Part shown: positions 6,263-53,061 of the stretch, piece by piece
Layout: every line of letters begins with the position of its first letter
How positions within the stretch are numbered: the stretch's first letter is position 1
NCBI GenBank assembly: GCA_030386295.1
Contig: JANQAO010000002.1
Span: forward strand, 186,868 to 250,867
Origin: Candidatus Doriopsillibacter californiensis
GTDB taxonomy: Bacteria > Pseudomonadota > Gammaproteobacteria > Tethybacterales > Persebacteraceae
Reading direction: 5' to 3'
Length of the DNA: 64,000 bases
Made by a program: the position numbers and the translations under genes
The notes under the pieces: generated by a model
What the model was told of the DNA's origin: nothing
What the model saw: the letters and a program-made list of their open reading frames with translations, nothing else
Databases searched by the model: none

Positions 6263-6415
6263 ACGTAAAATGATAATCCTGTTTTTTACGGGCTACCGTC
6301 AACAACTGCCACATTCAAAATTCGCATTATTATTGAATTTCGTTATAATTGTTGCCACTGGTGCACTCCAAGTGCTTCGGTTATTTTTTTCTATATTGTA
6401 TAAAAAGGAGAGTTA

Positions 6416-7531: not shown

Positions 7532-7594
7532 AAACGTTCTTTCTTGGTAGCGCTCGCTCGATTTTTAGTGGCGCTACCTTTTGAAAGAAAAAAA

Positions 7595-8845: not shown

Positions 8846-8847
8846 CC

Positions 8848-18282: not shown

Positions 18283-19722
18283 TTATGTTAATAATTCAGG
18301 CGTTAGTTTTTCCAAATCTCCATTTTGCCTCTTCTTTTTAAAGCACTCTGGCCATTTTTCTTTATTTGTCGGATGTACTTTCAGCCACCTTGAATTTTCT
18401 GAGTGCTGAATTTTTGAAACTTCTATTGCATCATCCTTAGAAATAATCCATCCATGAGGCTTAAAAGGCGAAATTCCGAGTAAAAATAAATAGTCATACT
18501 CTTTATCTTTTTTTATTTGTTCAAATGTATATGCACCGCTTTCCCAAAGAAAAGAAAGCTTAACTGCCATTTTTTTATCGTTTACTTCTATTATTTCATT
18601 TTTCGGTTTAACAGAACATTTCACCCAATATTCAGACAAAAATTTAGTAACAAGTTCCCTTGCCTTTTTCCCTTTAGTAGCAGGGGCCGCTATATGTAAC
18701 CATTCGTAAGGGCTCCCCTGCCATTCTTTGCGAATTTTACAGCTGCTTTTTAGCTCAAAAGAAGCATGGTCAAAAATATTATCCGCTTTACAATTTTCTT
18801 TACTTACAGCGTCAGATATATCAGAGGCGTCATTTAGTCTCCTAAGCACCACCTCATAAGATTCTTGACTACTATCAATTAAGATATATTTTCTTCTCGT
18901 TTTTTTAGCTGCTTCTCCCAGCGTTCCGCTACCTGCAAAAAAATCCAATACGGTATCCCCAATTTTGGAATGTGTTACAACTATGCGTTTGACGATATCC
19001 AACGGTTTCTGCGTTGCATAATTGACTCTTTCCTTACCGTTGGTCGGTACAATCGTTTGCCACCATACATCTGTACTCAACAAGAAGTCTGTCCCCCATA
19101 CGTCTGTCGGTTTCTTTCCTTTGGCTGCTTTTTCTGCTGATACCAACCCCGGTGCCATGTATGGAATGCGGTCTATATCATCATAGTTAAAAATATAATT
19201 GTCAGGGTCTTTGGCAAACCAATAGATGTTATCGTGTTTAGCCGGCCATTTATTCTTTCCTCGGCCACCAAAGTCATACGCCCAAATAATCTCGTTAATA
19301 CAGTGCGAGCTCCCGCCAAAAATCTCTTCTAATAACAAGCGACAGTTGGCCGCCTCTCGCCAGTCAATATGAAAAAACAGACTGCCGTTAGGCTTCAAAA
19401 TGCGATGCGCTTCTTGCAAGCGCGGTTGTAAAAAGCCAGTAAAATCATCAAAAGAGTCGGCGTAGCCAGATTTTCCGATAACCGTAGAATGATAACGATT
19501 ACCGCAAAATCCCGTACGGTCACCTTCGCCACCATTAATGCGTGTGGTTTTAATTCGTGTGCGGCTTTGTTTTTTACCCGTATTAAACGGCGGATCTATG
19601 TAGATTAGAGAAACTGTTTCAGATTTTATTTGTTTCAATAACGGCAGATTGTCGCCCAACAACATTTCCCCCCCGCCGGGAAGGCGTTTCTGTTTTGTGG
19701 CAAGCTCTTTCAAGGTAGGCAC
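18283..19722 (-). CDS. Beta-class N6-adenine (or N4-cytosine) DNA methyltransferase with an extra ~170-aa C-terminal domain of unknown function
   Basis: Motif [10 protein letters not shown] lies N-terminal to motif I FFAGSGT, which is the PF01555-type order. The C-terminal 170 aa (from about ISDAVSKEN) carry no MTase motifs and are encoded by visibly more AT-rich DNA. Confidence 0.85.
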
Positions 19723-22836: not shown

Positions 22837-24402
22837 TTATTGGGACAGCAAAGCAAAAGTGACCTCACCGGAAATATTTTTTTCTAGTGCTGCACGATAA
22901 CCTTTCTTTTCTGCTTCCATCGCCAATTGATGCAAGGCAACGCCAAACCCAGAGTCAGATTGTACCGGAGCCGCAAACAAGTGCGCCGCCGTTACCGCCA
23001 CTACCGGTGCGCCGTCGTCAGTAACGCGTAAAGTCATCTGTCCGGGGGCTGTTTCTGATAGAGACGCCGTTATCGTCGTTACCTGCTTATGCAACGCATT
23101 TTCTAAAAAATTATCTAATGCCCTGTCAAATAATGCACTTGACACCATTGATATCGCCGTTGTGGGAACAAAATACGCCTTGGTGTGTAAATGGCGCGAA
23201 GCAGCGTCCCGCCACCATGTCGCCGCATCCGCAAAACGATCATCATCGTCCTGATTTTGTAGCTTGGCTACCGCCGTCTCCAATCGCTGCCGCAAAATTG
23301 GCAACTGCCGCCGTAACAAAGCGTCATCTTTAACCATTGTCAACACCGCCAACGCATGTAAAATATTTTTAATGTCATGAGTTAAACGAGCTCCTGTTTG
23401 ATGCACAGCAACAAGTAAATTTTGCGCCCGCTGCTCTTCTTCCCGCCGTTTAGCAACGTAATATTCACTGACAATACGGCACAACAAATAGCGACCAAAC
23501 CACATCCACGGCGACACAAATCGTCGCGAATAAAACGTCAGCGTCAGCGGCGGACTAGCCACTTGAGCTCGATATTTGCTTTCCCGCCCCACCTGTTGCG
23601 GTACATTATCGCCAATACGCCATGCCAATCCCGTTATTCCGGGCAAACTATCGGCCAATTCCCGCATAGTAGCCTCCAAAAAATCTGCGGCACTTTCTTT
23701 CTCTGCAGCAATCGCGGAAATTTTTTCCACCCACTTATCCACTGGCACGTCCAACGCAAAAGCTTGGGATGTCAGACCGCCACCGGTCAGTGGTGCCAAT
23801 ACCAAACTTATTGCAGCGATAGCAGCACAAAAACCCGCAGCGGAAATAGCCACCACTTGTGGATATAAGTCAAGGTGCAATGACAGTAATTTAACTGTAA
23901 GCGCAAAAGCCAAAAATATCAGCGCCAGCAACGCACAAATCAGAGGATCGGCGGTGGTTTGTCGGCGACTAAAACCAATCAACACAATCAGACAAAGAAG
24001 TCCGGCAATCACGACGCTGTTATTCCCATCAATAATCGGCGGCAGACGATAATTCAGTGTGAAAAGAATAATTTGCAAACATAAGGCGGCGGCGGCAATA
24101 CGTCCCAGCTGTACTCGCCGATTATCGGCCAGCATGGCTTCGGTAGCAAAAATGCCGGCAAGCAAGCAAGCACACGGTAGCGGTAACCAAATTGACACTG
24201 CCGTCAATGCTACCGCCGCTACCAACATGCGAGCCAATTGCCCATCAATGGTACGATGTAACAAATGAACGCCCGCCGCTACCCCCACCAATGCATTAGG
24301 CGCTTCCGACCATGCCAGTACCGCCAACAATATTGGCGACAACGCCCCCAACACAAAACGTCCTACCATTATCAGACGACGGACACCGTTACCACCACTC
24401 AT
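22837..24402 (-). CDS. Polytopic membrane sensor histidine kinase (PrsK-like architecture), orphan
   Basis: About 200 aa of multi-TM N-terminus, H-box LTHDIKNILHAL, N-box ENALHK, and G-boxes DDGAP and SGFGVAL. Its start overlaps the comF stop (ATGA). Confidence 0.65.
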   Translation of the reverse strand: MSGGNGVRRLIMVGRFVLGALSPILLAVLAWSEAPNALVGVAAGVHLLHRTIDGQLARMLVAAVALTAVSIWLPLPCACLLAGIFATEAMLADNRRVQLGRIAAAALCLQIILFTLNYRLPPIIDGNNSVVIAGLLCLIVLIGFSRRQTTADPLICALLALIFLAFALTVKLLSLHLDLYPQVVAISAAGFCAAIAAISLVLAPLTGGGLTSQAFALDVPVDKWVEKISAIAAEKESAADFLEATMRELADSLPGITGLAWRIGDNVPQQVGRESKYRAQVASPPLTLTFYSRRFVSPWMWFGRYLLCRIVSEYYVAKRREEEQRAQNLLVAVHQTGARLTHDIKNILHALAVLTMVKDDALLRRQLPILRQRLETAVAKLQNQDDDDRFADAATWWRDAASRHLHTKAYFVPTTAISMVSSALFDRALDNFLENALHKQVTTITASLSETAPGQMTLRVTDDGAPVVAVTAAHLFAAPVQSDSGFGVALHQLAMEAEKKGYRAALEKNISGEVTFALLSQ

Positions 24403-38797: not shown

Positions 38798-40213
38798 TTA
38801 TTTGCGAAATTCAAGATAATATAATTGTCTGCTTCCTCCTTTGACTACCAACGACTCTCTGATGGTAAAGCGTTTTTTTAATTCCGCCTCAAAAGCTGCA
38901 AGATTATAATCATCGTATTGCTCTTTCTTGTTTAATAGCAATTTTTTTGTCATTTCATCATCGCGTCCAACAAATTCGACAATGGCATCAGCACCTAAGT
39001 TATGCAGCCAGTCCAAAAACAGCGGCATTGGTATATTGGCGGCAATACGCAAGTGATGCACCAAAGCCAAACATAAAACTAGTTGTGGCTTTTGCCGCGC
39101 ATCAAACGCTGCCCGCTCTTTACCCGCCCATCCCTGATTGGGAGACATATTGGCCAAATTCATTACCAATGGCAAAATGTTGCCATTGGTGGTTTCTTTT
39201 TCTTTGACGTACATTCGCTCCACCGCTTCAATGTCGCTATCCACCGCCACTACAGTTTGAGCGTGCAGCGCGCACAATCTTGAAAAGTCTCCTGTGTTAG
39301 CCCCCAAATCCCATACTATCTGCCGCTGCTGCGTCGCTGCGTGGCGCGCTACAAACTCTCGCTTTGCCTGAATATCAGCATCTGCGTACGAATGCGTTTG
39401 CGCGTAATGTGACCAAGCACTATGCTGCTGCCCCGGTCGGAGTTTGCGTACTGTGTTGCGTACACCCTGCACCAACCCAAAAATCATTGCTTCCGACTGC
39501 GGTTTGACTTCCCGTTTTTGCGCCGGCGCCCGATCACGCTCGCGTTTGAGTATGGAGTTTTCTACAGAAGCTGGCAGATGCACGTGCGCCATCACACCGG
39601 ATTTAAAGCGTCGCCAGCCACCAAAATACTTTGCCGCCGTCGACGGCGAAATACCATCTAAATCGGCGCGCAACGAACCATTGAAATCTATATTTAAATG
39701 CGCTTTGAGCATCAGTGGATACAAAAAAAGCATACAAAATTGCCGGTATGCCAGCCACGGCTCTCCTGCTACCGCCGGCACGATAGACGGCACATCAATA
39801 AATATCGGCTTAGCTCCTTGCCACTGGATATTGTAAGGCGTCGCGTCTTTGATGGTCCAACTGTTTTGCATCGCCGTTTCCAGCAATTCCAGCTGTAATA
39901 GTGCCGCATCTTGCAACATAAAAAATGCCCACTCATACGGATAGGAAACAAAGGGCACCGGCGCATGCTCCACCACTTCCGCCCAACCATCAGCGCGCAC
40001 GGCAGCAGTATCGGCATCATCAACAGCATGAATTGTTTTTACTATTTTCCCAGCCGACACCCATTCCTGAAAAAATGGTTGCGTTATCAATTTAGCGCAG
40101 TGCGCGGCGGCAGTTTTGTCTAACCCGCGCAAAATACGTCCTTCTGCAGTTTGATATATCCGGTTAACTGGATCTCGGAATGAACCAGTATTTGCTATGG
40201 GTTTTGACGTCAC
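38798..40213 (-). CDS. Two-domain protein: unknown N-terminal ~290 aa plus C-terminal class I SAM-dependent methyltransferase
   Basis: SAM motif I VWDLGANTGDFS and post-I acidic VAVDSD. The N-terminal domain has no motifs I can name other than KDATPYNIQW...IFIDVPS. Confidence 0.6.
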   Translation of the reverse strand: MTSKPIANTGSFRDPVNRIYQTAEGRILRGLDKTAAAHCAKLITQPFFQEWVSAGKIVKTIHAVDDADTAAVRADGWAEVVEHAPVPFVSYPYEWAFFMLQDAALLQLELLETAMQNSWTIKDATPYNIQWQGAKPIFIDVPSIVPAVAGEPWLAYRQFCMLFLYPLMLKAHLNIDFNGSLRADLDGISPSTAAKYFGGWRRFKSGVMAHVHLPASVENSILKRERDRAPAQKREVKPQSEAMIFGLVQGVRNTVRKLRPGQQHSAWSHYAQTHSYADADIQAKREFVARHAATQQRQIVWDLGANTGDFSRLCALHAQTVVAVDSDIEAVERMYVKEKETTNGNILPLVMNLANMSPNQGWAGKERAAFDARQKPQLVLCLALVHHLRIAANIPMPLFLDWLHNLGADAIVEFVGRDDEMTKKLLLNKKEQYDDYNLAAFEAELKKRFTIRESLVVKGGSRQLYYLEFRK

Positions 40214-40373: not shown

Positions 40374-42002
40374 TCACATTTGCTTGTAATTTGGGCCACC
40401 ACCGCCTTCCGGCGTTGTCCATTGAATATTTTGTGTCGGATCTTTAATATCGCAAGTTTTACAATGCACACAATTTTGCGCATTAATTACCAACTTTTTT
40501 TCGCCTGCTTCATCGTCCACATATTCGTACACGCCTGCAGGACAATAGTGTGCCTCAGGACCGGCGTATTGTTTCCAATTAACCTCCACCGCCCGTACCG
40601 GCTCGCGCAAGCGCAAATGCGCTGGTTGATCGGCTTCGTGATTCACACCAGAATACGCTAGATTGTCTAGCCGCGAAAAACTGAGCACCCCATCCGGCTT
40701 AGGATAATCAATCGGCTTGTGTTTTGCAGTCGTTTCTAATTGTGTATGGTCTGGTTTGTGTTTGAAAGTCCACGGTGCCCGCCCGCGCAAAACATAAGTG
40801 TCTAAAGCGGCGTTAGCCAAGCCTAAATATAAACCGCGACTAAATCCCGGGCGGATATTGCGAGCACGGCGCAATTCTTCACCAATCCAACTGTTACGCA
40901 CAGCGGTATCATAGTCGGTTATATCAGTAGCGACGTTGTCGCTTACCAGTGCGTCCATTGTTGCCTGTGCCGCCAGCATACCGCTTTTCATTGCCGTGTG
41001 CGCGCCTTTAATTTTGGGAACGTTTAACAATCCGGCGGCACAACCGACGATAAGCGCACCAGGCATAGACAGTTTAGGCAGACTTTGCCAGCCTCCTTCA
41101 TTGAGTGCTCGTGCCCCGTAAGCAATGCGCCGACCATCACGTAGCAACGAAGCAATTGCCTGATGATGCTTAAAACGTTGAAATTCTTCATATGGAGATA
41201 GGTAAGGATTGCGATAATCCAACCCGACAACAAACCCTAGTGCAATTTTGTTCGCTTCCAAATGATAAACAAAAGAACCACCATAAGTGTTGGTGGAAAG
41301 TGGCCAGCCGATGGAATGCAATACTCGCCCCGGCTCTGCAGCAGACGTTTCCCACAATTCTTTAATGCCGATAGCGTAAGTTTGCGGACAGCAACCATCG
41401 GTTAAATTATATTTTTTCATCACCAATTGCGTGAGCGAACCGCGACAACCTTCAGCAAAAATCGTACGGCGAGCGCGCAACTCTACACCAGGCTGATAGT
41501 TTGAACCTTTATCGCCATTTTTGAGTACGCCCATGTCACCGGTAACAACGCCGACTACCGTATTATTATCATCGTACAACACTTCCGCCGCAGCAAAGCC
41601 GGGAAAAATATCCACCCCCAATGTTTCAGCTTGCGCGCCCAGCCACGACACGACACGACCCAAACTGACAATATAATTTCCTTTATTACACATTTGCGGT
41701 GGTGGTGGTAATTTGAATTTCTTGTTTTCAGTAAGAAAACAAAATTCATCGTGCGTTACTGCTGTTTGCACTGGCGCACCTTTGTCGCGCCAGTCGGGTA
41801 TGAGTTCATCCAGAGCCCGCGTTTCTAAAACGGCACCAGCAAGAGTGTGGGCACCTACTTCGGCTCCTTTTTCTACGACACAAACACTGATATCCTGACC
41901 AGCCTTTTCGGCGCATTGTCGCAAATGAATAGCGGCAGCAAGCCCCGCCGGACCGGCACCGACAATAAGCACGTCAAACTCAAGCGTTTCGCGGACGGTC
42001 AC
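40374..42002 (-). CDS. Electron-transfer flavoprotein:ubiquinone oxidoreductase
   Basis: FAD motif DVLIVGAGPAGLAAA and the C-terminal 4Fe-4S region CVHCKTCDIKDP...WTTPEGGGGPNY. Confidence 0.95.
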   Translation of the reverse strand: MTVRETLEFDVLIVGAGPAGLAAAIHLRQCAEKAGQDISVCVVEKGAEVGAHTLAGAVLETRALDELIPDWRDKGAPVQTAVTHDEFCFLTENKKFKLPPPPQMCNKGNYIVSLGRVVSWLGAQAETLGVDIFPGFAAAEVLYDDNNTVVGVVTGDMGVLKNGDKGSNYQPGVELRARRTIFAEGCRGSLTQLVMKKYNLTDGCCPQTYAIGIKELWETSAAEPGRVLHSIGWPLSTNTYGGSFVYHLEANKIALGFVVGLDYRNPYLSPYEEFQRFKHHQAIASLLRDGRRIAYGARALNEGGWQSLPKLSMPGALIVGCAAGLLNVPKIKGAHTAMKSGMLAAQATMDALVSDNVATDITDYDTAVRNSWIGEELRRARNIRPGFSRGLYLGLANAALDTYVLRGRAPWTFKHKPDHTQLETTAKHKPIDYPKPDGVLSFSRLDNLAYSGVNHEADQPAHLRLREPVRAVEVNWKQYAGPEAHYCPAGVYEYVDDEAGEKKLVINAQNCVHCKTCDIKDPTQNIQWTTPEGGGGPNYKQM

Positions 42003-42937
42003 TCTTCCAATGCCGCTTGCAGTTGCGGGATAATTTCAAATAAATCCCCCACCAATCCGTAATCCGCAATTTCAAAAATAGGCGCGTCCGCATCTTTGTT
42101 AATTGCAACAATACATTTGGAATCGCGAATACCCGCCAAGTGCTGAATGGCTCCAGAAATACCAACGGCCATGTATAAATCGGGCGCGACAATTTTTCCA
42201 GTCTGCCCCACCTGGAAATCATTGGGTGCGTAACCTTCGTCCACCGCGGCACGTGATGCGCCAATACCAGCGCCAAGTTTGTCGGCCAATGCCTCTAATA
42301 ATTTAAAATTATCAGCACTGCCCACACCGCGCCCACCCGAAATGATGATTTGTGCAGCGGTCAATTCGGGACGCTCCAACGCCGATACTCGCTCACCAAT
42401 AAATTCCGTCAACCCGGAGTCACCGCCACTGGTAATCGCTGTCACCTTACAAGGCGTATCGGCATCTCCTGTTACCGGTTCAAATGCTGTTGTGCGGATG
42501 GATAAAAATTTCACCGCATCTAAACTTTGCACCGTCGTAAACGCATTTCCTGCGTAAATCGGACGTACAAAAGTATCAGCAGCTTCAATCCCAATTATTT
42601 CGCTAATCATTTGACTATCCGCTAATGCTGCAGCACGCGGTAACCACATGCGCGCCAGCGAGCCAGCCGCCATAATCACATGCGTTATTTCACCCACTTG
42701 TTCGGCAATTAGCGGAGCACAATTTTCGGCTAACCCGTTTTTATAAGCAATGTTTTCGGCCACACGTACAGCGGCTAACCCCGGAGCGTGACTGACAATA
42801 TCGGCTACGGCACGGCAATTTTCGCCAATCACCAAAGCTTCAATTTGCCCGCCTAATTGACCGGCCGCGGCTAACGCGTAGCGAAAATTTTCTCGCGGCG
42901 CCTGATTATCATGTTCAACAACAATTAATACGCTCAT
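41999..42937 (-). CDS. etfA: Electron transfer flavoprotein alpha subunit
   Basis: GISGAIQHLAGI...VAINKDADAPIF signature. It overlaps both neighbouring genes by 4 nt. Confidence 0.95.
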   Translation of the reverse strand: MSVLIVVEHDNQAPRENFRYALAAAGQLGGQIEALVIGENCRAVADIVSHAPGLAAVRVAENIAYKNGLAENCAPLIAEQVGEITHVIMAAGSLARMWLPRAAALADSQMISEIIGIEAADTFVRPIYAGNAFTTVQSLDAVKFLSIRTTAFEPVTGDADTPCKVTAITSGGDSGLTEFIGERVSALERPELTAAQIIISGGRGVGSADNFKLLEALADKLGAGIGASRAAVDEGYAPNDFQVGQTGKIVAPDLYMAVGISGAIQHLAGIRDSKCIVAINKDADAPIFEIADYGLVGDLFEIIPQLQAALEE

Positions 42938-43686
42938 GACAACACCTTCGCTTCCTCGCGCAACACGCGAACCAATTCTTGAGCATCGGCCACTTTGCGC
43001 CCAGAAGGACGCGGTGGTGGCTCACTAACACGCAGTACTTTTAAGCGCGGCGATAAATCCACACCCAGATCTGCCGCGGTCAGTTCCTCCATCGGCTTAC
43101 GCCGCGCTTTCATAATGTTAGGCAACGTTGCATAGCGTGGTTGATTTAACCGCAAATCGGCGGTCAATACGCAAGGAAGCTTAATACGCACGTTAACAAT
43201 ACCGTTATCCACTTCCGAATCCGCCGATACTGTACCGTCTTCCAGCGTAGCAGCAGATAAAAATAGTCCCTGCCCCCATCCTAATAATGCGGCAACCATT
43301 TGGCCAGTTTGGTTGAAATCTCCATCCGCCGCCTGTTTACCCATCCATATTACTTCCGGTTTTTCGCGACGCGCGACGGCAGCGATGAGTTTGGCTGCTA
43401 TCAGCGGCACCGGTAGCATTTCCGTATTGACTAAAATAGCGCGGTCAGCACCCATTGCCAGTGCCATACGCAAAGTTTCCGCCGTATCTGCACCGCCGGC
43501 TGACATTGCCACCACTTCCGTTACCACACCATTATCTTTCCAGCGTAGGGCCTCTTCCAATGCGTTTTCACAAAATGGATTCATCGCCATTTTGACGTCA
43601 TTTTTTTCTACATCCAATCCATCAGCACGCACCCTGACTTTGACATAGGGATCAATCACCCGCTTGACTGTAACCAGTGCTTTCAT
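42934..43686 (-). CDS. etfB: Electron transfer flavoprotein beta subunit
   Basis: MKALVTVKRVIDPYVKVRV N-terminus and ETF-beta length. Confidence 0.95.
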   Translation of the reverse strand: MKALVTVKRVIDPYVKVRVRADGLDVEKNDVKMAMNPFCENALEEALRWKDNGVVTEVVAMSAGGADTAETLRMALAMGADRAILVNTEMLPVPLIAAKLIAAVARREKPEVIWMGKQAADGDFNQTGQMVAALLGWGQGLFLSAATLEDGTVSADSEVDNGIVNVRIKLPCVLTADLRLNQPRYATLPNIMKARRKPMEELTAADLGVDLSPRLKVLRVSEPPPRPSGRKVADAQELVRVLREEAKVLS

Positions 43687-43807
43687 ATTGTTCTCCTATC
43701 CTCAAAAATATGCTTTTGATAATTTATTAATATGCAATTAAAACAAATTTTTTACGATAATCATTCAAAAAAGCACATTCTTTGCGTATAGTATATAAAA
43801 ATTCATT

Positions 43808-43823
43808 AACTAACTAGTTAGTT
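43808..43823. promoter_or_regulatory. Perfect 16-bp palindrome AACTAACTAGTTAGTT, candidate TetR-family operator in the etfB / regulator divergent intergenic region
   Basis: Exact reverse-complement symmetry, 48 bp upstream of the regulator ATG. A further half-site-like TTAGT lies at about 43848. Confidence 0.5.
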
Positions 43824-43870
43824 TTTATAGTTTTGTATATAATTGAGTTAGTAAATTGGAGAGTGCCTTG

Positions 43871-45385
43871 ATGTTAAAAGAAAAAACGAATGTAGTCGGA
43901 AACCCTGTTGGCAAAGCCGACCGCATGCGTGATCGCCTTATTGATGCCGCAATTGAATCCGTCTACAGAAACGGCTTTTCCGATACAACGGTAGCAAAAA
44001 TCAGTGAAATAGCCGATGTTTCCACTGCTACCGTGCATCATCATTTCACTCACAAAGAAGATTTACTGGAACAAGCGATGTCAGTGTTGCTGGAACAAAT
44101 GCGCCACAAAGTGGTGAATGGCTGTACACAGGCTGAAGGCCCTCGCGGCAAACTGTGGGCGGTTATTCAAGCCGTACTCGGCGAAGAACAAAGCAATGAC
44201 CGCGCTGCCAATGTATGGCTGGCGTTTTGGGTTGCGGCAGAGCATTTTGAATCACTGCGCCGAGTACGCAACATTTACACCCGCCGTTTGTACAGCAATG
44301 TCCGCGGTTATTTACGCCAGATACTTCTGGAAATCGGCGCGCCCAATCCGTTTGAACGGACGGAATACGGCACTTTAATGATTATTTCCGTACTGCACGG
44401 CTCGTGGCTCAGTTTTGCCTTAAAAGAAGAAGCTGCACAAGATTTGGAACGTTGCCGCTTGATGGTTTGGGAATGCTTGGAAATGTTGCTCTCGCGTGCT
44501 CGTGAAAATCTGGTAGGAGATCGCGGTATGGTAGCTACTTCATCGCGCTTGCTAAATGGCGTGAGTTTGGAGATGCTTAGTGCCGACATTGACCAAGCCC
44601 AAAATTGGCATGGTACCTTGAATGATGATTCACGGATGTTTGTGCCACATTTTCGCAATCTTAATATGGAAGAAAGCACCCGTACAGCCGGCAAAATTAT
44701 TGACCAAGGCATGACTCCCGTGGCGCATGTAGCGGCGCGTAATATCGCCGATGAAAACGAATTAGAGCGCATTGTTGCTGGATTTACCGGTGTTGGAGTA
44801 CACGAATTTTTGTTACTTGGCGGCGGCGAGGCAACACCGGCGGGGAAATTCGAAAATTCCATGCAGTTGTTACAGACCGGTATTTTTCAACACTACAACG
44901 CTCGCAAAGTCGGGTTTGCCGGTCATCCTGAAGAACACCCAGCACAGCCGCGAGATATTATGCGCCAGGCGTTGTTAGACAAACTTCGTTATGCCTCTGC
45001 ACACGACATGGAAGCTTTTATTGTCACTCAATTTTGCTTTGCCGTCACTCCTTATTTTGATTTTTTGGACTGGCTCAAAAGCGAAAAAATATCCGTGCCG
45101 GTGCGTTTAGGTATTGCTGGGCGGGTCGGTGCCAAAAAACTATTTAAATATGCTGCATTTTGTGGAATTGGTCGTTCAGTCGGCTTTTTTCGCCGACAAT
45201 TTGGCAAAACGTTGGGACTAGTTAATTTCTCCCCCGAAGGCATTATTGCCGAATTAGCAGGACGCGTAGCAGTGCGTCAATACGATTTTCCCATCAGTCT
45301 CCATTTCTATCCATTTGGAGCTGTTCGAGAAACCTTGGCGGTCATCTCAGAGGCGCAAATCAACGGCGTCGCTGAGGTGGCTTAA
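43871..45385 (+). CDS. BetI-like TetR-family regulator fused in frame to a methylenetetrahydrofolate-reductase-like domain
   Basis: N-terminal HTH TVAKISEIADVSTATVHHHF and the BetI-like WLAFWVAAEH...RRLYSN. The C-terminal ~290 aa carry MTHFR-fold landmarks (VAHVAARN, AGHPEEHP, IVTQFCFA, LHFYPFG). GGAG lies 9 nt upstream of the ATG at 43871. Confidence 0.7.
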   Translation: MLKEKTNVVGNPVGKADRMRDRLIDAAIESVYRNGFSDTTVAKISEIADVSTATVHHHFTHKEDLLEQAMSVLLEQMRHKVVNGCTQAEGPRGKLWAVIQAVLGEEQSNDRAANVWLAFWVAAEHFESLRRVRNIYTRRLYSNVRGYLRQILLEIGAPNPFERTEYGTLMIISVLHGSWLSFALKEEAAQDLERCRLMVWECLEMLLSRARENLVGDRGMVATSSRLLNGVSLEMLSADIDQAQNWHGTLNDDSRMFVPHFRNLNMEESTRTAGKIIDQGMTPVAHVAARNIADENELERIVAGFTGVGVHEFLLLGGGEATPAGKFENSMQLLQTGIFQHYNARKVGFAGHPEEHPAQPRDIMRQALLDKLRYASAHDMEAFIVTQFCFAVTPYFDFLDWLKSEKISVPVRLGIAGRVGAKKLFKYAAFCGIGRSVGFFRRQFGKTLGLVNFSPEGIIAELAGRVAVRQYDFPISLHFYPFGAVRETLAVISEAQINGVAEVA

Positions 45386-45424
45386 TTTTAATAAAACTTT
45401 ATTCTTATTGAGAGAGAGAAAAAC

Positions 45425-46759
45425 ATGTCCATTAAAAAACTATCAGAAGCCGAAGCCACTTGGCCGGCCGATCAATCCTTACTGAAAACGCGCCGCGTAC
45501 CTATTCAATTGCGGCAAAGTGGTGATTCCCATGCCACCCCGGGGCTAGAAGGCATTAGTGCCGAAGGCTCAAGAATGCTGATTGATCAGCGCATTCGCAA
45601 GGGCCCCTACTGGCATCTGTCGCAGGAAGCTGGTTGCTGGTGCCATTCGGTGTACAACCGGATTTATCATCCTCGCGCCTATATCAAACCCGAAGACGGT
45701 GGCTTGATGGAAGAATACAAATATCTTACCGAGCATGTAACCATGTGGAACGTTGCAGTAGAACGCCAAATTCAAGTCAAAGGTCCAGATGCTGAAAAAT
45801 TCGTAGATATGGTTATCACCCGCAAAGCTTCGTCATGTGCGGTAATGAAAGCACGCTATGTGATTCTATGCAATCAATACGGCGGTGTACTCAACGATCC
45901 CGTCATGCTACGTCTTGCCGAAGATGAATTTTGGTTTTCATTGTCAGACTCAGATTTGGAATTTTGGTTGCAAGGCGTAAACGCCTTTGGTCAATACGAC
46001 GTAGAAATTCACGAAATTGACGTGGCACCAGTGCAAATTCAAGGCCCCAAGTCAACGCCGCTCATGCGCAAAATTTTTGGTGCCGCCATTGATGACGTAG
46101 CCTACTATGGTCTTATGCGCGGGGAAATAGGTGGTTGCGAAGTTATTATTTCTCGTTCTGGATTTTCCGCCGAGGCAGGTTATGAAATTTACCTGTACGA
46201 TGCCACAAAAAATGCCGAAAAAATGTGGAATTCTGTATTGGAAGCGGGCAAAGAATTTAACCTCAAAGTTATCGCTCCCGGTCATCATCGCCGCATTGAA
46301 GCTGGTATCCTTTCTTGGGGACAAGATATGGACCAAGAAATAAACCCATTTGAAATTGGCCTTGACTGGCAGGTAGATTTTGGCAAGGATAACTTTATCG
46401 GTAAAGCCGCATTACAAAAAATCAAAGATGCCGGTGTGACCCACAAACTATGTGGTGTGCGCATGGGCGGCAAAGACATTACTTGGTATCCGTCTGATTT
46501 TTATCATGTCTTTGATTCTGATGGCAAAAAATTGGTAGGTTATATCACGTCAGCGTGGTATTCACCAGCACAAAAGTCCAACATCGGCTTTGCCTTTTTA
46601 CCGGTGAAATACACACAATTAGGAACAAACCTGAATGTGTCGTTGCCTGAAATTTACAATCCCGATAATAAACCTGTGGAAGCTGAAGTAGTTTCAACTC
46701 CATTCAAAAAGCCTTATGACCCAGGTACCGGATTGGCAGAAACCGGAAAAAAATTGTAA
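45425..46759 (+). CDS. GcvT-family (aminomethyltransferase-fold) tetrahydrofolate-dependent demethylase-like protein
   Basis: ISRSGFSAEAGYEIY (compare GcvT SRTGYTGEDGFEI), QIQGPKS and GGVLNDPV. A strong SD GAGAGAGAGAAAAAC lies upstream. The N-terminus is ~50 aa longer than typical. Confidence 0.8.
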   Translation: MSIKKLSEAEATWPADQSLLKTRRVPIQLRQSGDSHATPGLEGISAEGSRMLIDQRIRKGPYWHLSQEAGCWCHSVYNRIYHPRAYIKPEDGGLMEEYKYLTEHVTMWNVAVERQIQVKGPDAEKFVDMVITRKASSCAVMKARYVILCNQYGGVLNDPVMLRLAEDEFWFSLSDSDLEFWLQGVNAFGQYDVEIHEIDVAPVQIQGPKSTPLMRKIFGAAIDDVAYYGLMRGEIGGCEVIISRSGFSAEAGYEIYLYDATKNAEKMWNSVLEAGKEFNLKVIAPGHHRRIEAGILSWGQDMDQEINPFEIGLDWQVDFGKDNFIGKAALQKIKDAGVTHKLCGVRMGGKDITWYPSDFYHVFDSDGKKLVGYITSAWYSPAQKSNIGFAFLPVKYTQLGTNLNVSLPEIYNPDNKPVEAEVVSTPFKKPYDPGTGLAETGKKL

Positions 46760-46772
46760 TCATTTCCTCTCA

Positions 46773-46807
46773 AGCAGGTCGGCTAAATAGCCGACCTGCT
46801 TTTTTTG
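46773..46807 (+). terminator. Rho-independent terminator
   Basis: AGCAGGTCGGC-TAAATA-GCCGACCTGCT followed by TTTTTTG. Confidence 0.85.
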
Positions 46808-47002: not shown

Positions 47003-47905
47003 TTATTTTTTACAGTTATCGTCACCAGGCTCAGTTCGCCGATTAGCGATTAATAAACCGAACATCACCAAACTGGCACCGACAAAAAAGGCAGTTCCGA
47101 TATTCTCGTTCAGCAACATCACACCCAAAATCACCGCCACCAGCGGAATAATAAATGCTGTTTGTGTCGTGTTAACCGCACCGATTGTTCGTATTAGATA
47201 AAAATACAATAAAAACGCACAATACGTACTGAACATTGCCATACTCGCCACGGCCAACAAAGCACCAGCTGGCGGTAGCGGCATTTGCCACGGAGCTTCC
47301 CACAAACACAATGGCAACAACAACAATGTCGCCCAAATCAATTGGCCACAAGCGTTTTCCATAGGCGCAAAATCAGCAGTATAACGGCGGGCAAAAATCG
47401 CTACTACCCCATAAGAAGCTGATGCTGCCAGCCCCGCCATACTCCCCCAAAAAAAGGCATCATCAGTTTCCAGTCCCGGTTGAAAAAGAACCGTAATTCC
47501 AACGACACCGATAAACAATCCTACCAATCGCCGCCAGCGCATGGTTTCTTCACCGACCATACACGCCATTACCAGCGTAAACAAGGGTGTGGTGGAATTG
47601 AGCACTCCTGCCAAAGAACTGTCTATGTATTGTTGTCCCCAAGAAAATCCTGCAAAAGGAAAAGCACTACCAAAAAAAGCGAGGACAATATACTTGCGCC
47701 TTCGTTGCCAAATCACGCCCAACCACATGCCACGAACTCGCAAAGTTATACACAATAGTACTGCCGCTGTACCAATGCGAAAAAAAACGATAGTAAATGG
47801 AGCAAGTGCCTTAAGTGCAATTTCCGCCATCAAGAAAGAACTACCCCACAACACAGCGAGCAATGTTACCAACGCCCAATGACGCGCATTCATTAATAAA
47901 ATCAA
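47003..47905 (-). CDS. DMT-superfamily (EamA-like) transporter
   Basis: 300 aa and 10 predicted TM segments in two EamA-like halves. Confidence 0.8.
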   Translation of the reverse strand: MILLMNARHWALVTLLAVLWGSSFLMAEIALKALAPFTIVFFRIGTAAVLLCITLRVRGMWLGVIWQRRRKYIVLAFFGSAFPFAGFSWGQQYIDSSLAGVLNSTTPLFTLVMACMVGEETMRWRRLVGLFIGVVGITVLFQPGLETDDAFFWGSMAGLAASASYGVVAIFARRYTADFAPMENACGQLIWATLLLLPLCLWEAPWQMPLPPAGALLAVASMAMFSTYCAFLLYFYLIRTIGAVNTTQTAFIIPLVAVILGVMLLNENIGTAFFVGASLVMFGLLIANRRTEPGDDNCKK

Positions 47906-47912
47906 AAACCGT

Positions 47913-49409
47913 TTAGTACAAATTAACCCAAGCTGATTTCATTTGCGTATATTCCAACAAGCTTTCAAAACACTTGTCACGGGTGTTTCCTGATTGTTTA
48001 TAGCCGCCAAAAGGTTGTGTCATATCATCTTCAAAATAAGTATTCACCCACACCACACCGGCTTCAATCTCGCGTACGGCACGGTGAGCGCGACCAATGT
48101 CGCGAGTCCAAACAGATGCAGCCAACCCATAAATAGTGTCATTAGCCAGCTGAATGGCGTCATCAATACCATCAAATGGTAATACCGCAGCAACCGGTCC
48201 AAACACTTCCTCACGCGCCAGTGCTGAATCGCGCTTAACTCTAGTAATAAGAGTTGGTTCAACAAAAGCTCCATCAGCAAGATTTTTTGGCACTCCGCCG
48301 CCAACAACAACGTGAGCGCCAACATCGGCGCTATCTTTAATGCAGCCCAACACTCGTTTTTGATCGGCATGAGTGACTAGTGGCCCAAGCGGCGTTTCCC
48401 ATGCCAGCGGGTTCCCCGGTGCAAACTGCCCCACCAACGAAGCAAGTTTTTCTACAAATTCATCATGCCGGCAACGATCAATGAGTAGCCGTGAACCGGC
48501 ATTACACACCTGTCCTGAATTAGAAAAAATACCTTCTGCCGCTGCCGCTACTGCAGCATCCATGTCGGGCATATCATCCAAAAAAACCTGCGGCGACTTG
48601 CCGCCACATTCTAAGCCCACGCGCTTCATATTGGATTCACCCGCGTAGATGAGCATTTTCTTTCCTACCGCCGTAGAACCGGTAAAACTGATTTTAGCCA
48701 CATTCGGGTGGCGTGCCAGTGCCTGCCCAGCCACTTCGCCAATACCATTGACCACATTAAAAACTCCTGCCGGTCCACCAGCCTCTACAAACAGCCGCGC
48801 CAACAACAAGCACGATAACGGCGCTTGTTCCGCTGGTTTTAATACTACCGTGTTGCCTGCCGCCAGTGCTGGCGCAAATTTCCACGCCGCCATCAACGCC
48901 GGATAATTCCACGGAGAAATAGCACCAACAACTCCCAGCGGCTCGCGCAATACATAATGCAGAACGTCATGCTTAGTAGCCGTAACTTTACCTTCCACTT
49001 TGTCAATGCATTCGGCAAAAAATCGGATAGTTTTAACCACTTCGGGAATATCACCGTCATAGGCACTACATATAGGCTTACCCATACAAAGTGTTTCTAG
49101 TAATGCAAGCGTTTCGGCATTTTGTTTAATCAAATCGGCAAAACGCCACATAATGGCAGCCCGCTTGCGAGGAGCAAGGCAACGCCAAACACCGTCTTTG
49201 TGTGCGGTGGTAGCGGCGGCGACGGCGAGATCAATATCTTTTTGGTTACCGGCGACGGCTTCTATCAGCGTTTCGCCAGTCGCTGGATTGACAACGGCAC
49301 AACGCCCGCCGTCAACGGCATCAAGGTAAGCACCATTAATAAACAATCGTGCTTCAATGTTTAGCGTCGCTGCCGCTTCCTGCCAATCATGTTGTTCGGG
49401 GATAATCAT
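47913..49409 (-). CDS. NAD-dependent aldehyde dehydrogenase (PuuC-like)
   Basis: ALDH motifs (LECGGKSP, GQVCNAGSR, EEVFGP). The N-terminus resembles gamma-glutamyl-gamma-aminobutyraldehyde dehydrogenase (IEARLFINGAY...LETLCMGKPI). Confidence 0.85.
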   Translation of the reverse strand: MIIPEQHDWQEAAATLNIEARLFINGAYLDAVDGGRCAVVNPATGETLIEAVAGNQKDIDLAVAAATTAHKDGVWRCLAPRKRAAIMWRFADLIKQNAETLALLETLCMGKPICSAYDGDIPEVVKTIRFFAECIDKVEGKVTATKHDVLHYVLREPLGVVGAISPWNYPALMAAWKFAPALAAGNTVVLKPAEQAPLSCLLLARLFVEAGGPAGVFNVVNGIGEVAGQALARHPNVAKISFTGSTAVGKKMLIYAGESNMKRVGLECGGKSPQVFLDDMPDMDAAVAAAAEGIFSNSGQVCNAGSRLLIDRCRHDEFVEKLASLVGQFAPGNPLAWETPLGPLVTHADQKRVLGCIKDSADVGAHVVVGGGVPKNLADGAFVEPTLITRVKRDSALAREEVFGPVAAVLPFDGIDDAIQLANDTIYGLAASVWTRDIGRAHRAVREIEAGVVWVNTYFEDDMTQPFGGYKQSGNTRDKCFESLLEYTQMKSAWVNLY

Positions 49410-51710: not shown

Positions 51711-53039
51711 CTATTGGTAATCGCGCAATGCCTCTCGCGTTTTGTCAAAAATCTCGTCTAAGTGGCTTTTTTCAGCGATAAGCGGTGGCGAAAATGCCAA
51801 GGTATCACCAGTTACGCGCATCATAATGTCTTTTTCATGAAAGCACCGTTCAAAGATATTAAATGCTCGATCACCCACTTTACCCGGAATGCTTTCTAAT
51901 TCCACTGCACCCATAAAGCCAATATTGCGAATGTCTTTAACATTTGGACAATCACGCAACGAATGAATAGCTTCTTCAAAATACGCACTAAGCCCCTCGC
52001 TATCAATGCGCTCCATCAGACCTTCTTCTTCGTACAAATTTAAAGCACCACGACCGGCTGCAACAGAAAGCGGGTGACCGGAATAGGTATAGCCATGGAA
52101 AAAATCAATCTCCTTTTCTTGAGCGGCATCTATAAAAGTCTGGCGAATATCATCACGCACCAACACGCCACCCAAAGGCGCACAACCGCTAGTAACACCT
52201 TTGGCAAAGGTAATCATATCTGGAGTAACACCAAAATATTCTGCTGCTGTCTTTTTGCCCAACCGCCCAAAGGCAGTAATTACTTCGTCATAAATAAGCA
52301 AAATATCGTTGGCACTACAAATTTCGCGCAATCGTTTTAAGTATCCTTGAGGCGGCGGTAGCACGCCGGCAGAGCCGGATACCGGTTCTACTATCACCGC
52401 AGCGATAGTAGAAGCATCGTGTAGAGCGATAATTTGTTGTAAAGCATCGGCGTAGGATTCGCCGCCATGTTCGGGGATACCGCGAGAAAAGCCATTTTTT
52501 TGTGGATTATGAGTGTGCGGTAGATGATCAACTCTGAGCATTTGATTACCAAACCACAGACGATTTTTTACAATACCGCCCACCGACATTCCGCCAAAGC
52601 CCACGCCATGATAGCCGCGCTCACGACCTACTAATAATTGTTTGCCGCCGTTACCGCGAATTTTGTGATAGGCCAAGGCCATTTTGAGCGCACTGTCATC
52701 GGCTTCCGAGCCAGAATTAGTCAAGAAAACGCTGTTGAGTTCGTCGGGAAAGTATGTCGCCAATCGTTCGCTAAATTCAAAAACACTCGGGTGTCCCAAG
52801 TGGAAAGTTGGGGCAAAATCTAACACGGCCGCCTGTTCTTGAATAGCACGCACAATGGGCTCACGGCAATGTCCTCCATTGCTACACCACAAGCCAGAAG
52901 TTGCATCCAGCAGCTTCCGTCCGTCCATGTCATAACAGTGCATGTCTTTTGCCGAAGCGAGTAATCGTGGCTTTGATTTAAAATTTTTATTAGATGAATA
53001 AGGCATCCAAAAAGCATCCATAGTGGGTTGTATCGTCAT
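51711..53039 (-). CDS. Class III (omega-amino acid:pyruvate type) aminotransferase
   Basis: PLP fold-type I motifs (DEVITAFGRLG, Lys in TFAKG). The N-terminus is typical of beta-alanine--pyruvate transaminases (FWMPYSSN). Confidence 0.85.
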   Translation of the reverse strand: MTIQPTMDAFWMPYSSNKNFKSKPRLLASAKDMHCYDMDGRKLLDATSGLWCSNGGHCREPIVRAIQEQAAVLDFAPTFHLGHPSVFEFSERLATYFPDELNSVFLTNSGSEADDSALKMALAYHKIRGNGGKQLLVGRERGYHGVGFGGMSVGGIVKNRLWFGNQMLRVDHLPHTHNPQKNGFSRGIPEHGGESYADALQQIIALHDASTIAAVIVEPVSGSAGVLPPPQGYLKRLREICSANDILLIYDEVITAFGRLGKKTAAEYFGVTPDMITFAKGVTSGCAPLGGVLVRDDIRQTFIDAAQEKEIDFFHGYTYSGHPLSVAAGRGALNLYEEEGLMERIDSEGLSAYFEEAIHSLRDCPNVKDIRNIGFMGAVELESIPGKVGDRAFNIFERCFHEKDIMMRVTGDTLAFSPPLIAEKSHLDEIFDKTREALRDYQ

Positions 53040-53061
53040 TGATAATTCCTTTCTCAACAGA

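What the first reader, a model, noticed from the sequence alone, without database searches (positions are those of the whole stretch)
43687..45385. In-frame fusion of a BetI-like TetR repressor to an MTHFR-fold domain, with a perfect palindromic operator
One 504-codon frame joins a TetR/BetI-type DNA-binding and regulatory core (about aa 10-200) to a ~290-aa domain with methylenetetrahydrofolate-reductase landmarks. I know of no described TetR regulator whose C-terminal extension is an MTHFR barrel. By-eye alignment puts GGG (FLLLGGGE) where E. coli MetF has the catalytic RGD, so the domain may bind folate or flavin rather than act as an enzyme. The gene is divergent from etfB-etfA-ETF:QO and precedes a GcvT-family demethylase. 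The shared intergenic region holds the perfect 16-bp palindrome AACTAACTAGTTAGTT. A plausible role is a one-component regulator that senses methyl-THF or methylene-THF status to control methyl-group oxidation.
Basis: partly seen in the sequence, partly recalled or inferred. Interest (0 to 1): 0.65.

Follow-up and report, generated by a model that had tools for sequence, protein, structure and literature searches.

The report
Repressor fused to methyl-folate oxidising enzyme
One gene in a marine animal symbiont joins a BetI-like TetR repressor to a methyl-tetrahydrofolate-oxidising ("type 4" MTHFR-like) barrel, made by fusing the first two genes of a three-gene demethylation operon; it is a real, conserved and apparently undescribed architecture built from known parts.

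Summary
ORF 43871-45385 (504 aa) is intact in four independent assemblies and conserved in about 50 protein clusters. The N-terminal half is a BetI-type TetR regulator.

The C-terminal half is not a generic MetF. Its closest solved relative is S6MTHFR (7xg9/7xlf; E 3e-35, TM 0.91), the founder of the "type 4" MTHFRs. These oxidise methyl-THF and pair with THF-dependent demethylases. A DmdA-like demethylase lies directly downstream in every locus that extends that far.

Two unfused operons (L032, L034) encode the same TetR, barrel and demethylase as separate genes with overlapping stop and start codons. The fusion therefore joined two operon neighbours.

The barrel keeps Glu, Gln, Phe/Tyr, Cys and the YPFG loop. 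The catalytic Asp is Gly, followed by Glu/Asp. That signature also occurs in the free-standing barrels, so it does not mark a fusion-specific loss of catalysis.

The ETF neighbourhood occurs only in this lineage. The palindrome is a plausible operator, and candidate operators co-vary with the recognition helix.

Most likely this is an autorepressor plus a working methyl-THF dehydrogenase on one chain. Whether the barrel's state controls DNA binding (PutA-like) is open. I rate it a new variant of a known kind, of moderate interest.

The parts
43871..45385 (+). Fusion gene, 504 aa plus stop. An alternative TTG start lies at 43856.
   Evidence: The frame is intact in 4 assemblies and in about 50 orthologous clusters.
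43871..44497 (+). BetI-like TetR module (aa 1-209). HTH at aa 23-68 with recognition helix ...VSTATVHHHF; TetR_C_6 ligand and dimerisation domain at aa 91-207.
   Evidence: Pfam and NCBIfam. Best PDB match is 3e7q. The model shows 9 helices, H15-H208.
44498..44533 (+). Flexible linker (about aa 210-221; pLDDT about 59). It sits where the unfused operons have the overlapping stop and start codons.
   Evidence: L032 ATGA overlap; L034 8-nt overlap.
44534..45382 (+). Type-4-like MTHFR (beta-alpha)8 barrel (aa 222-504). Retained: E234, H286, R290, Q387-F388, Y427, C431, H478-F479-Y480-P481-F482-G483. Changed: P259-H260-F261 in place of T-F-L, and G317-G318-G319-E320 in place of A-G-D-P.
   Evidence: Residue roles are from PMC11868366.
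43808..43823 (.). Perfect 16-bp palindrome AACTAACTAGTTAGTT, the candidate operator. It lies 48-63 nt upstream of the ATG and overlaps, or lies just downstream of, the promoter-like hexamers.
   Evidence: L001 has the same layout and the motif co-varies with the recognition helix.
43846..43852 (+). Third copy of the half-site AGTTAGT, just after a TATAAT hexamer (43838-43843).
   Evidence: L001 has the equivalent repeat TTTAGTTAAT after its TATAAT.
45425..46759 (+). DmdA-like, GcvT-family, THF-dependent demethylase (444 aa). It is co-oriented and 39 nt downstream of the fusion gene. The substrate is unverified.
   Evidence: Pfam GCV_T + GCV_T_C. NCBIfam DmdA 297 bits, below its cut-off of 410. 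PDB 3tfh at E 1e-66. Adjacent in 9 of 9 genome loci that extend downstream, and in L027-L032 and L034.
46772..46801 (+). Intrinsic-terminator-like hairpin (13-bp stem followed by a T run) that closes the two-gene operon.
40374..43686 (-). Divergent etfB-etfA-ETF:quinone oxidoreductase operon. It shares the 184-bp intergenic region. This association is lineage-specific.
   Evidence: Present next to the module only in the window and L001.

Best explanation
The gene encodes a two-function protein created when the first two genes of a three-gene operon (betI-like repressor, type-4-like MTHFR, DmdA-like demethylase) lost the stop/start overlap between them.

The N-terminal TetR module binds as a dimer to the palindrome in its own promoter. 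There it represses the fusion-demethylase operon, and in this lineage probably also the divergent etfBA/ETF-QO operon. It is released when a methylated onium substrate of the pathway (of the betaine, DMSP or choline type) fills the BetI-type pocket.

The C-terminal barrel is a working flavoenzyme. It oxidises the 5-methyl-THF made by the co-transcribed demethylase to 5,10-methylene-THF. This regenerates THF and feeds the C1 pool. The electrons go to an acceptor other than NAD(P)+, such as a quinone or ETF.

Shown here: the architecture, its homology to S6MTHFR, the conserved pairing with the demethylase, the existence of the unfused state, and retention of most catalytic residues.

Inferred: flavin binding, catalysis, the inducer, the operator assignment and the electron acceptor. 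In this reading the fusion needs no cross-talk between the two halves.
For: The barrel matches S6MTHFR at E 2.9e-35 and TM 0.91, far better than canonical MetF (E 0.02, TM about 0.7).

S6MTHFR oxidises CH3-THF, rejects NADH and is genetically paired with THF-dependent demethylases (PMC11868366).

A demethylase lies directly downstream in every locus that extends that far, with no terminator before it.

Unfused operons L032 and L034 carry an orthologous TetR (47% and 44% identity), the barrel and the demethylase (78%) as separate genes with overlapping stop and start codons. These free-standing barrels carry the same PHF/GGGE signature.

The fused sequences form one clade with 90% support. The unfused-operon barrels P0056 and P0079 branch just outside it, within a wider clade that has 92% support.

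The Glu21, Gln175, Phe176, Phe215, Cys219 and Tyr267-Pro268-Phe269-Gly270 equivalents are conserved. All invariant polar residues lie at the C-terminal ends of the eight strands.

The bulky F261 sits at the position where Leu48 blocks NADH in S6MTHFR. Canonical enzymes have Gly there.

An acidic residue follows the GGG in 26 of 27 fusions. In Mfr a Glu fills the Asp120 role (PMC11094777).

The HTH residues are conserved. The palindrome lies in the promoter region, and the candidate operators co-vary with the recognition helix.
Against: The Asp that binds the pterin and is needed for catalysis in E. coli (D120N retains 0.3% of kcat) is Gly here.

The beta2 residues T-F-L-P of S6MTHFR are P-H-F-R here, and Arg78 is Asn. 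One of the three type-4 motifs is therefore not met.

No biochemical data exist for any member with this signature, so flavin binding is unproven.

The exact palindrome is not conserved across the family, and its chance probability in this intergenic region is only about 0.02.

A repressor and an enzyme are normally needed in very different amounts. Persistence of the fusion therefore hints at some functional coupling that this reading does not explain.
Confidence: 0.45

Rival explanations
1. PutA-like 'trigger enzyme'. The barrel is catalytically active, and its state (CH3-THF bound, or flavin reduced and docked on its electron acceptor) changes the DNA affinity of the attached TetR dimer. 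Expression would then follow flux through methyl-THF as well as, or instead of, the level of a small-molecule inducer.
For: All the evidence that the barrel is an enzyme applies here too. The fusion has been kept across at least 50 clusters down to 46% identity, and in a second 50%-level cluster, P0076. That persistence suggests selection for physical linkage. The linker is short, about 12 residues. In the unfused operons the two genes are translationally coupled, which fits two proteins that already interacted. MTHFR and the PutA proline dehydrogenase barrel are both FAD-binding (beta-alpha)8 barrels (from my own knowledge). The physiological acceptor of type-4 MTHFR is unknown, and menadione works in vitro.
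Against: There is no direct evidence of inter-domain communication. The inter-domain geometry is uncertain (pTM 0.61). The complete BetI-type ligand domain is retained, so a conventional inducer pocket is available. No other DNA-binding domain was found fused to this barrel family, even among the best hits with long N-terminal extensions.
Confidence: 0.25
2. One reading: the barrel has lost catalysis and serves only as a sensor domain for folate (methyl-THF or methylene-THF) or flavin, attached to a one-component regulator.
For: The catalytic Asp is replaced by Gly, and the beta2 motif next to the flavin and folate is changed. Residues that contact CH3-THF in S6MTHFR are conserved, as a binding-only domain would also require.
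Against: The same signature occurs in free-standing barrels. Two of these are encoded as separate genes next to the same demethylase, where a DNA-independent sensor makes little sense and an enzyme is expected. The general-acid Glu (E234) is invariant, and an acidic residue follows the GGG in 26 of 27 fusions. Without an MTHFR activity the demethylase would trap THF as CH3-THF, apart from what methionine synthase consumes.
Confidence: 0.2
3. Assembly or annotation artefact, or a decaying pseudogene in a reduced symbiont genome.
For: The host genomes are small (1.7-2.2 Mb contigs). One database protein, P0057, is a frameshift chimera of barrel and demethylase.
Against: The junction is identical in 4 independent assemblies. 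There are about 50 intact orthologous clusters with strong conservation in both halves.
Confidence: 0.02

Closest known systems
S6MTHFR / 'type 4' MTHFR of Sphingobium lignivorans SYK-6 (PDB 7XG9, 7XLF; Yu et al. 2025, PMC11868366)
   Same: It is the best sequence and fold match (E 2.9e-35; TM 0.91, 2.2 A). The Glu21, Gln175, Phe176, Phe215 (Tyr here), Cys219 and Tyr-Pro-Phe-Gly loop equivalents are conserved. A bulky residue sits at the position that blocks NADH. The gene is paired with a THF-dependent demethylase.
   Different: The barrel here is fused to a TetR repressor. Asp107 is Gly, followed by Glu. The T-F-L-P motif is P-H-F-R, and Arg78 is Asn. The partner is DmdA-like and not LigM, DesA, CmuAB or Dmt. 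Sequence identity is only about 28-35%. No biochemistry is available.
BetI, the choline-responsive TetR-family repressor of the bet genes
   Same: TetR_N plus TetR_C_6 (the BetI-type C-terminal domain). NCBIfam PRK00767 scores above its cut-off. The gene is autoregulator-like, with a palindrome in a divergent promoter region. It sits in a methylated-onium-compound context.
   Different: TIGR03384 scores below its cut-off (138 against 201). No betA, betB or betT genes are adjacent. The protein carries a 290-aa enzyme barrel. The inducer is unknown.
PutA of E. coli and Salmonella (a DNA-binding domain fused to a flavin-dependent proline dehydrogenase barrel); 'trigger enzymes' in general
   Same: A transcriptional repressor domain and an FAD-type (beta-alpha)8 catabolic enzyme of the regulated pathway lie on one polypeptide. 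This offers a template for redox- or substrate-coupled derepression.
   Different: PutA uses a ribbon-helix-helix domain and not TetR, and it has no separate ligand-binding regulatory domain. The enzyme family and pathway differ. The coupling is demonstrated for PutA and is only hypothetical here. This comparison rests on my own knowledge, not on a test made here.
The ligM-metF-ligH operon (SYK-6) and the cmu and dmt clusters: a demethylase plus a methyl-THF-oxidising MTHFR
   Same: The same two-enzyme logic applies: a demethylase makes CH3-THF and a dedicated MTHFR oxidises it.
   Different: The gene order and the demethylase family branch differ. No formyl-THF enzyme is in the operon. The regulator is fused to the MTHFR.
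DmdA, the DMSP demethylase of Pelagibacter and Ruegeria (PDB 3TFH)
   Same: The partner gene is the closest to DmdA among solved structures (E 1e-66), and DmdA is its best NCBIfam hit.
   Different: Its score is below the DmdA equivalog cut-off (297 against 410). It has an extra N-terminal segment of about 50 aa. Distant homologs sit beside soxBDAG or BHMT-like genes, so the substrate could be an N-methyl compound and not DMSP.

Membership tests
TetR family / BetI subfamily | N-terminal TetR-type helix-turn-helix | tested here: met
   PF00440 at 43.2 bits (cut-off 24), aa 23-68. The HTH residues are invariant across 27 fusions.
TetR family / BetI subfamily | BetI-type C-terminal ligand and dimerisation domain | tested here: met
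   PF13977 at 49.6 bits (cut-off 27). PRK00767 at 132 bits (cut-off 118). TIGR03384, however, scores 138, below its cut-off of 201.
TetR family / BetI subfamily | Binds a palindromic operator in its own promoter; released by choline or a related ligand | not testable with these tools
   A candidate operator lies at 43808-43823, with a clade-specific counterpart in other loci. No binding data exist.
MTHFR superfamily (PF02219) | (beta-alpha)8 barrel homologous to MetF | tested here: met
   Pfam scores 21.5 bits, below its cut-off of 24. However, phmmer against 7xg9 gives E 2.9e-35 and Foldseek gives TM 0.91 to 7xlf and 0.65-0.73 to E. coli and Thermus MTHFR.
MTHFR superfamily (PF02219) | Catalytic tetrad Glu28 / Asp120 / Gln183 / Phe223 (E. 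coli numbering) | tested here: inconclusive
   E234, Q387 and Y427 (Phe or Tyr) are present. Asp120 aligns with G319, and E320 (E/D in 26 of 27 fusions) follows it.
Type 4 (S6MTHFR-type) MTHFR | Helix alpha8 motif (Phe215 ... Cys219) | tested here: met
   Y427 and C431 (a few members have Ser), with G432 invariant.
Type 4 (S6MTHFR-type) MTHFR | Loop beta8-alpha11 motif Tyr-Pro268-Phe269-Gly | tested here: met
   H478-F479-Y480-P481-F482-G483 are conserved.
Type 4 (S6MTHFR-type) MTHFR | Loop beta2-alpha3 motif Leu48-Pro49, held in place by Arg78 | tested here: not met
   The residues here are F261-R262 and N291. A bulky residue is kept at the Leu48 position, so NADH exclusion is plausible, but the motif itself differs.
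Type 4 (S6MTHFR-type) MTHFR | Genetic pairing with a THF-dependent demethylase | tested here: met
   A DmdA-like gene lies directly downstream in all loci that extend that far.
Type 4 (S6MTHFR-type) MTHFR | FAD-dependent CH3-THF oxidation without use of NAD(H) | not testable with these tools
   This needs the purified protein.
PutA-like trigger enzymes | The enzyme's redox or substrate state switches DNA binding | not testable with these tools
   Only the shared architecture principle applies. No test was possible.

The most novel reading that the evidence does not exclude
The fusion is a TetR-based 'trigger enzyme'. The attached methyl-THF dehydrogenase barrel reports its own turnover (methyl-THF occupancy, or flavin reduction and docking to its acceptor) to the repressor dimer, so that transcription of the demethylation operon follows one-carbon flux directly. 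That would be the first TetR regulator gated by an in-cis flavoenzyme, and a PutA-type logic evolved independently on a different DNA-binding scaffold.
Probability: 0.25. Interest if true: 0.8.

Novelty: new variant of a known kind. Interest (0 to 1): 0.5.

Why it matters
TetR regulators are almost always two-domain proteins of about 200 aa. A conserved fusion to an enzyme of the regulated pathway is unusual, and both the fused and the unfused states exist for comparison. This gives a natural system for asking whether linking an enzyme to its repressor creates flux sensing.

The finding extends the recently defined pairing of a demethylase with a methyl-THF-oxidising MTHFR. That pairing was described in lignin- and chloromethane-degrading bacteria. 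Here it appears in uncultured sponge- and mollusc-associated symbionts, partnered with a very conserved but uncharacterised DmdA-like demethylase.

It also defines a sub-branch of the barrel family with Gly in place of the catalytic Asp and a new invariant His. The chemistry and cofactor of this sub-branch are unknown.

Database annotation as 'BetI' hides the enzyme half.

Tried and rejected
1. A conserved ETF link. tblastn and all-against-all clustering of the flanks of 16 loci showed that only the fusion and the demethylase recur. etfBA is adjacent only in the window and L001. I therefore dropped ETF as a conserved partner, although it remains a possible acceptor.

2. Exact conservation of the palindrome. 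It is not found in other loci. Only clade-specific inverted repeats are seen. There is no second copy in the window with up to 3 mismatches.

3. Other DNA-binding domains fused to this barrel. Nine long hits from the exhaustive search have no extra Pfam domain. Only P0076 is another TetR fusion.

4. RNA evidence for co-transcription. No RNA run could be listed.

5. Context of the divergent fused protein P0076. It is not on record.

6. Literature on TetR-MTHFR fusions or on a dmdA-linked TetR. Nothing relevant was found. The 'TetR' hits were word-start matches to 'tetrahydrofolate'.

7. Source names for the demethylase. Only generic 'aminomethyltransferase' labels appear.

It was repeated without that row.

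10. I could not check whether the genomes carrying the fusion also encode a canonical metF or a second type-4 MTHFR.
Full report
OBSERVATION

The window has an open frame from 43856 (TTG) or 43871 (ATG) to 45385 on the + strand. A GGAG lies 9 nt before the ATG at 43871, so the product is 504 aa.

Pfam finds TetR_N (aa 23-68), the BetI-type TetR_C_6 domain (aa 91-207) and a sub-threshold MTHFR match (aa 278-433; 21.5 bits against a cut-off of 24). NCBIfam's BetI model PRK00767 scores above its cut-off (132 against 118). TIGR03384 does not (138 against 201).

- etfB, etfA and ETF:quinone oxidoreductase lie divergently at 40374-43686.
- A 444-aa GcvT-family gene lies 39 nt downstream, at 45425-46759.

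The palindrome AACTAACTAGTTAGTT lies at 43808-43823.

IS THE FUSION REAL?

Yes. Contigs from four public runs cover 43600-46800 with no insertion or deletion. They come from mollusc metagenomes and a coded 'organism A', across several studies. The only difference is one SNP, 44612 G>T, which changes Gly248 to Cys.

A homolog search returned about 50 full-length clusters of 490-530 aa at 46-73% identity with the same architecture. Ten of them lie on contigs of uncultured gammaproteobacterial MAGs from sponges and sea caves. These include Candidatus Persebacter sydneyensis and Candidatus Zeuxoniibacter abyssi. The literature places Persebacter in the Tethybacterales sponge symbionts.

WHAT THE C-TERMINAL HALF IS

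Residues 211-504 match one solved protein far better than any other. That protein is 7xg9/7xlf, the MTHFR of Sphingobium lignivorans SYK-6, at E 2.9e-35. E. coli MetF scores only about 0.02.

An AlphaFold2 model built on a 63-sequence alignment has a mean pLDDT of 85.7. It shows nine TetR helices, a low-confidence linker at about aa 210-221, and an eight-stranded barrel. Foldseek places the barrel on 7xlf_B at TM 0.91 and 2.2 A, against 0.65-0.73 for canonical MTHFRs.

Yu et al. 2025 (PMC11868366) report the following for S6MTHFR:
- It binds FAD.
- It oxidises 5-methyl-THF to 5,10-methylene-THF (kcat 29 per second) and barely reacts with NADH.
- It founds a 'type 4' MTHFR family that is found together with THF-dependent demethylases.
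- The family is defined by three motifs: loop beta2-alpha3 Leu48-Pro49 (with Arg78), helix alpha8 Phe215/Cys219, and loop beta8-alpha11 Pro268-Phe269.
- Its physiological electron acceptor is unknown.

RESIDUE MAP

Conserved in the fusion family:
- Glu21 maps to E234 (invariant).
- Gln175-Phe176 map to Q387-F388 (invariant).
- Phe215 maps to Y427 (Phe or Tyr).
- Cys219 maps to C431.
- Tyr267-Pro268-Phe269-Gly270 map to Y480-P481-F482-G483.
- His73 and Arg77 map to H286 and R290.

Changed:
- Asp107 (E. coli Asp120) maps to G319, within G317-G318-G319-E320.
- Thr46-Phe47-Leu48-Pro49 map to P259-H260-F261-R262, and PHF is invariant.
- Arg78 maps to N291.

In the model, every invariant polar residue sits at the C-terminal end of a strand, on the catalytic face of the barrel.

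Position 320 is Glu or Asp in 26 of 27 aligned fusions. Asp120 binds the pterin N3 and exo-NH2, and D120N retains 0.3% of kcat. In the flavin-independent Mfr a Glu fills the equivalent place (PMC11094777). A shifted acid is therefore plausible, but it is unproven.

F261 is bulky at the site where Leu48 blocks NADH. Canonical enzymes have Gly there.

CONTEXT AND ORIGIN

The DmdA-like gene lies directly downstream of the fusion in all nine genome loci that extend that far. It does so too in further metagenomic loci.

It is much more conserved than the regulator: 78-86% identity against 46-73%. Its best solved relative is Pelagibacter DmdA (3tfh, E 1e-66).

No terminator separates the two genes. 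A strong terminator follows at 46772-46801. Clustering all flanking ORFs of 16 loci shows that nothing else recurs. etfBA is adjacent only in the window and L001.

Two loci from different samples carry the unfused state.
- L032 (a 1.9-Mb circular contig) has a 199-aa TetR (47% identical to the window's TetR half). Its TGA overlaps the ATG of a 316-aa barrel, P0056. A demethylase (78% identical) follows.
- L034 has a partial TetR (44% identical), an 8-nt overlap, the barrel P0079, and a demethylase (78% identical).

The free-standing barrels P0056, P0079 and P0081 carry the same PHF and GGGE signature. P0078 has PHF with AGD.

A neighbour-joining tree of the barrels puts all 22 fused sequences in one clade with 90% support. 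Two long-branch standalone sequences also fall inside it. P0056 and P0079 branch just outside, within a wider clade that has 92% support.

An exhaustive search of 1.84 billion representatives with the barrel alone gave 1679 relatives. Only two of the listed representatives are TetR fusions (P0051 and P0076). The other long hits that I checked have no additional domain.

The simplest history is one fusion event at an overlapping stop/start in a betI-like-mthfr4-demethylase operon.

OPERATOR

A perfect 16-bp palindrome is only mildly unusual. The window has four against about one expected, and the probability of one in this AT-rich 184-bp region is about 0.017. Its context helps in three ways.
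- It overlaps, or lies just downstream of, the promoter-like hexamers (and the sequence).
- A third half-site, AGTTAGT, follows a TATAAT hexamer at 43846.
- L001 has the same arrangement: TTGACTATTTAGTTAA, then TATAAT, then TTTAGTTAAT.

Across clades the candidate operator changes together with the recognition helix.
- Loci with ...ATVHHHF or HHYF helices carry TAACTA/TAGTTA- or ACTAAT/ATTAGT-type repeats. These loci are the window, L001, L029/30, L009 and the unfused L032.
- The four loci with ...TTVQNYF helices carry TGGTA-N5-TACCA at a conserved position.

This is what real operators would do, but it is not proof of binding.

MECHANISM

I commit to the following.
- The TetR half autorepresses the two-gene operon at the palindrome. 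In this lineage it probably also represses the divergent ETF operon.
- It is induced through its BetI-type pocket by the methylated onium substrate.
- The demethylase transfers a methyl group to THF.
- The barrel oxidises the resulting CH3-THF to CH2-THF, using a non-nicotinamide acceptor.

The substrate is unresolved. DmdA is the nearest characterised enzyme, but the NCBIfam score is below its cut-off. Sources give only generic names. Distant homologs sit next to soxBDAG or to BHMT-like and TauD genes. Nearby genes in some loci include a GMC oxidoreductase and a dimethylglycine-dehydrogenase-like gene.

Alongside the conventional reading (0.45) I keep two rivals.
- A PutA-like trigger enzyme, in which the barrel's state gates DNA binding (0.25).
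This one is weakened because the same signature occurs in free-standing proteins of the unfused operons.

An artefact is excluded.

COMPARISON AND NOVELTY

The parts are known: a BetI-type TetR, a type-4 MTHFR, and a DmdA-like demethylase. The pairing of a demethylase with a methyl-THF-oxidising MTHFR was described in 2025.

What appears new:
- The covalent union of the repressor with the enzyme.
- The existence of both fused and unfused states.
- The Asp-to-Gly, His-containing sub-branch of the barrel.
- The occurrence of this module in marine animal symbionts.

I found no paper describing it. Where databases name it, they label it BetI.

It fails one of the three type-4 motifs, and its catalytic Asp is displaced. 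I therefore describe it as type-4-like and not as a proven member.

Verdict: a new variant of a known kind, interest about 0.5.

Noticed in passing
window 45425-46759; P0224-P0343: The partner GcvT-family demethylase belongs to a large family with 64-86% identity across many uncultured lineages. It is far more conserved than its regulator and carries only generic 'aminomethyltransferase' names. It scores below the DmdA equivalog cut-off, so its substrate is uncharacterised.
   Followed up: partly
L037 9001-16905; L035/L036 9001-18234: Homologs of that demethylase at about 70-73% identity lack the TetR/MTHFR genes. They sit next to PhyH plus soxBDAG (L037), or near BHMT-like S-methyltransferase, TauD, class-III aminotransferase and HalD genes among many transposases (L035/36). 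This hints at an N-methyl or sulfonium substrate.
   Followed up: no
window 18283-19722 (-): A 479-aa N6/N4 DNA methyltransferase gene lies between the ribonucleotide reductase large (19734-22628) and small (17177-18262) subunit genes. Related loci (L027) carry several N6_N4_Mtase and HNH genes.
   Followed up: no
window 38798-40213 (-) and 22837-24402 (-): Two long ORFs (471 and 521 aa) have no Pfam match at E <= 1e-5. The first lies directly downstream of ETF-QO on the same strand.
   Followed up: no
window 47003-49409 (-), 51711-53057 (-), 4757-9696 (+): Near the module there is an EamA-type transporter plus an aldehyde dehydrogenase, and a class-III aminotransferase. Elsewhere in the window there is a second aldehyde dehydrogenase with an SBP_bac_8 ABC transporter. 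These are possibly amine or aldehyde catabolism genes. Aldehyde dehydrogenases also flank the module in L027/L028.
   Followed up: no
P0057 (366 aa): This database protein joins the C-terminal part of the barrel to the N-terminus of the demethylase. It looks like a frameshift or gene-call chimera in one assembly, not a second kind of fusion.
   Followed up: partly
window 44612: One run (X5) has T instead of G. This changes Gly248 to Cys in a variable loop of the barrel's N-terminal region. It is a natural polymorphism between symbiont populations.
   Followed up: yes
P0059/P0063 and L033 6120-9072: Another standalone branch of the barrel family has A-H-I in beta2 and A-G-G in place of A-G-D. 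This again pairs a His in beta2 with loss of the Asp. In L033 the barrel sits next to an AsnC-type regulator and a GcvT-family gene. Loss of the Asp has therefore happened, or spread, beyond the fused clade.
   Followed up: partly
window 8525, 50898, 53531: There are three other perfect 16-bp palindromes in the window (CCCGCATATATGCGGG, TTACTGGATCCAGTAA, AAGCGGCGCGCCGCTT). With the operator candidate this makes four, against about one expected.
   Followed up: no
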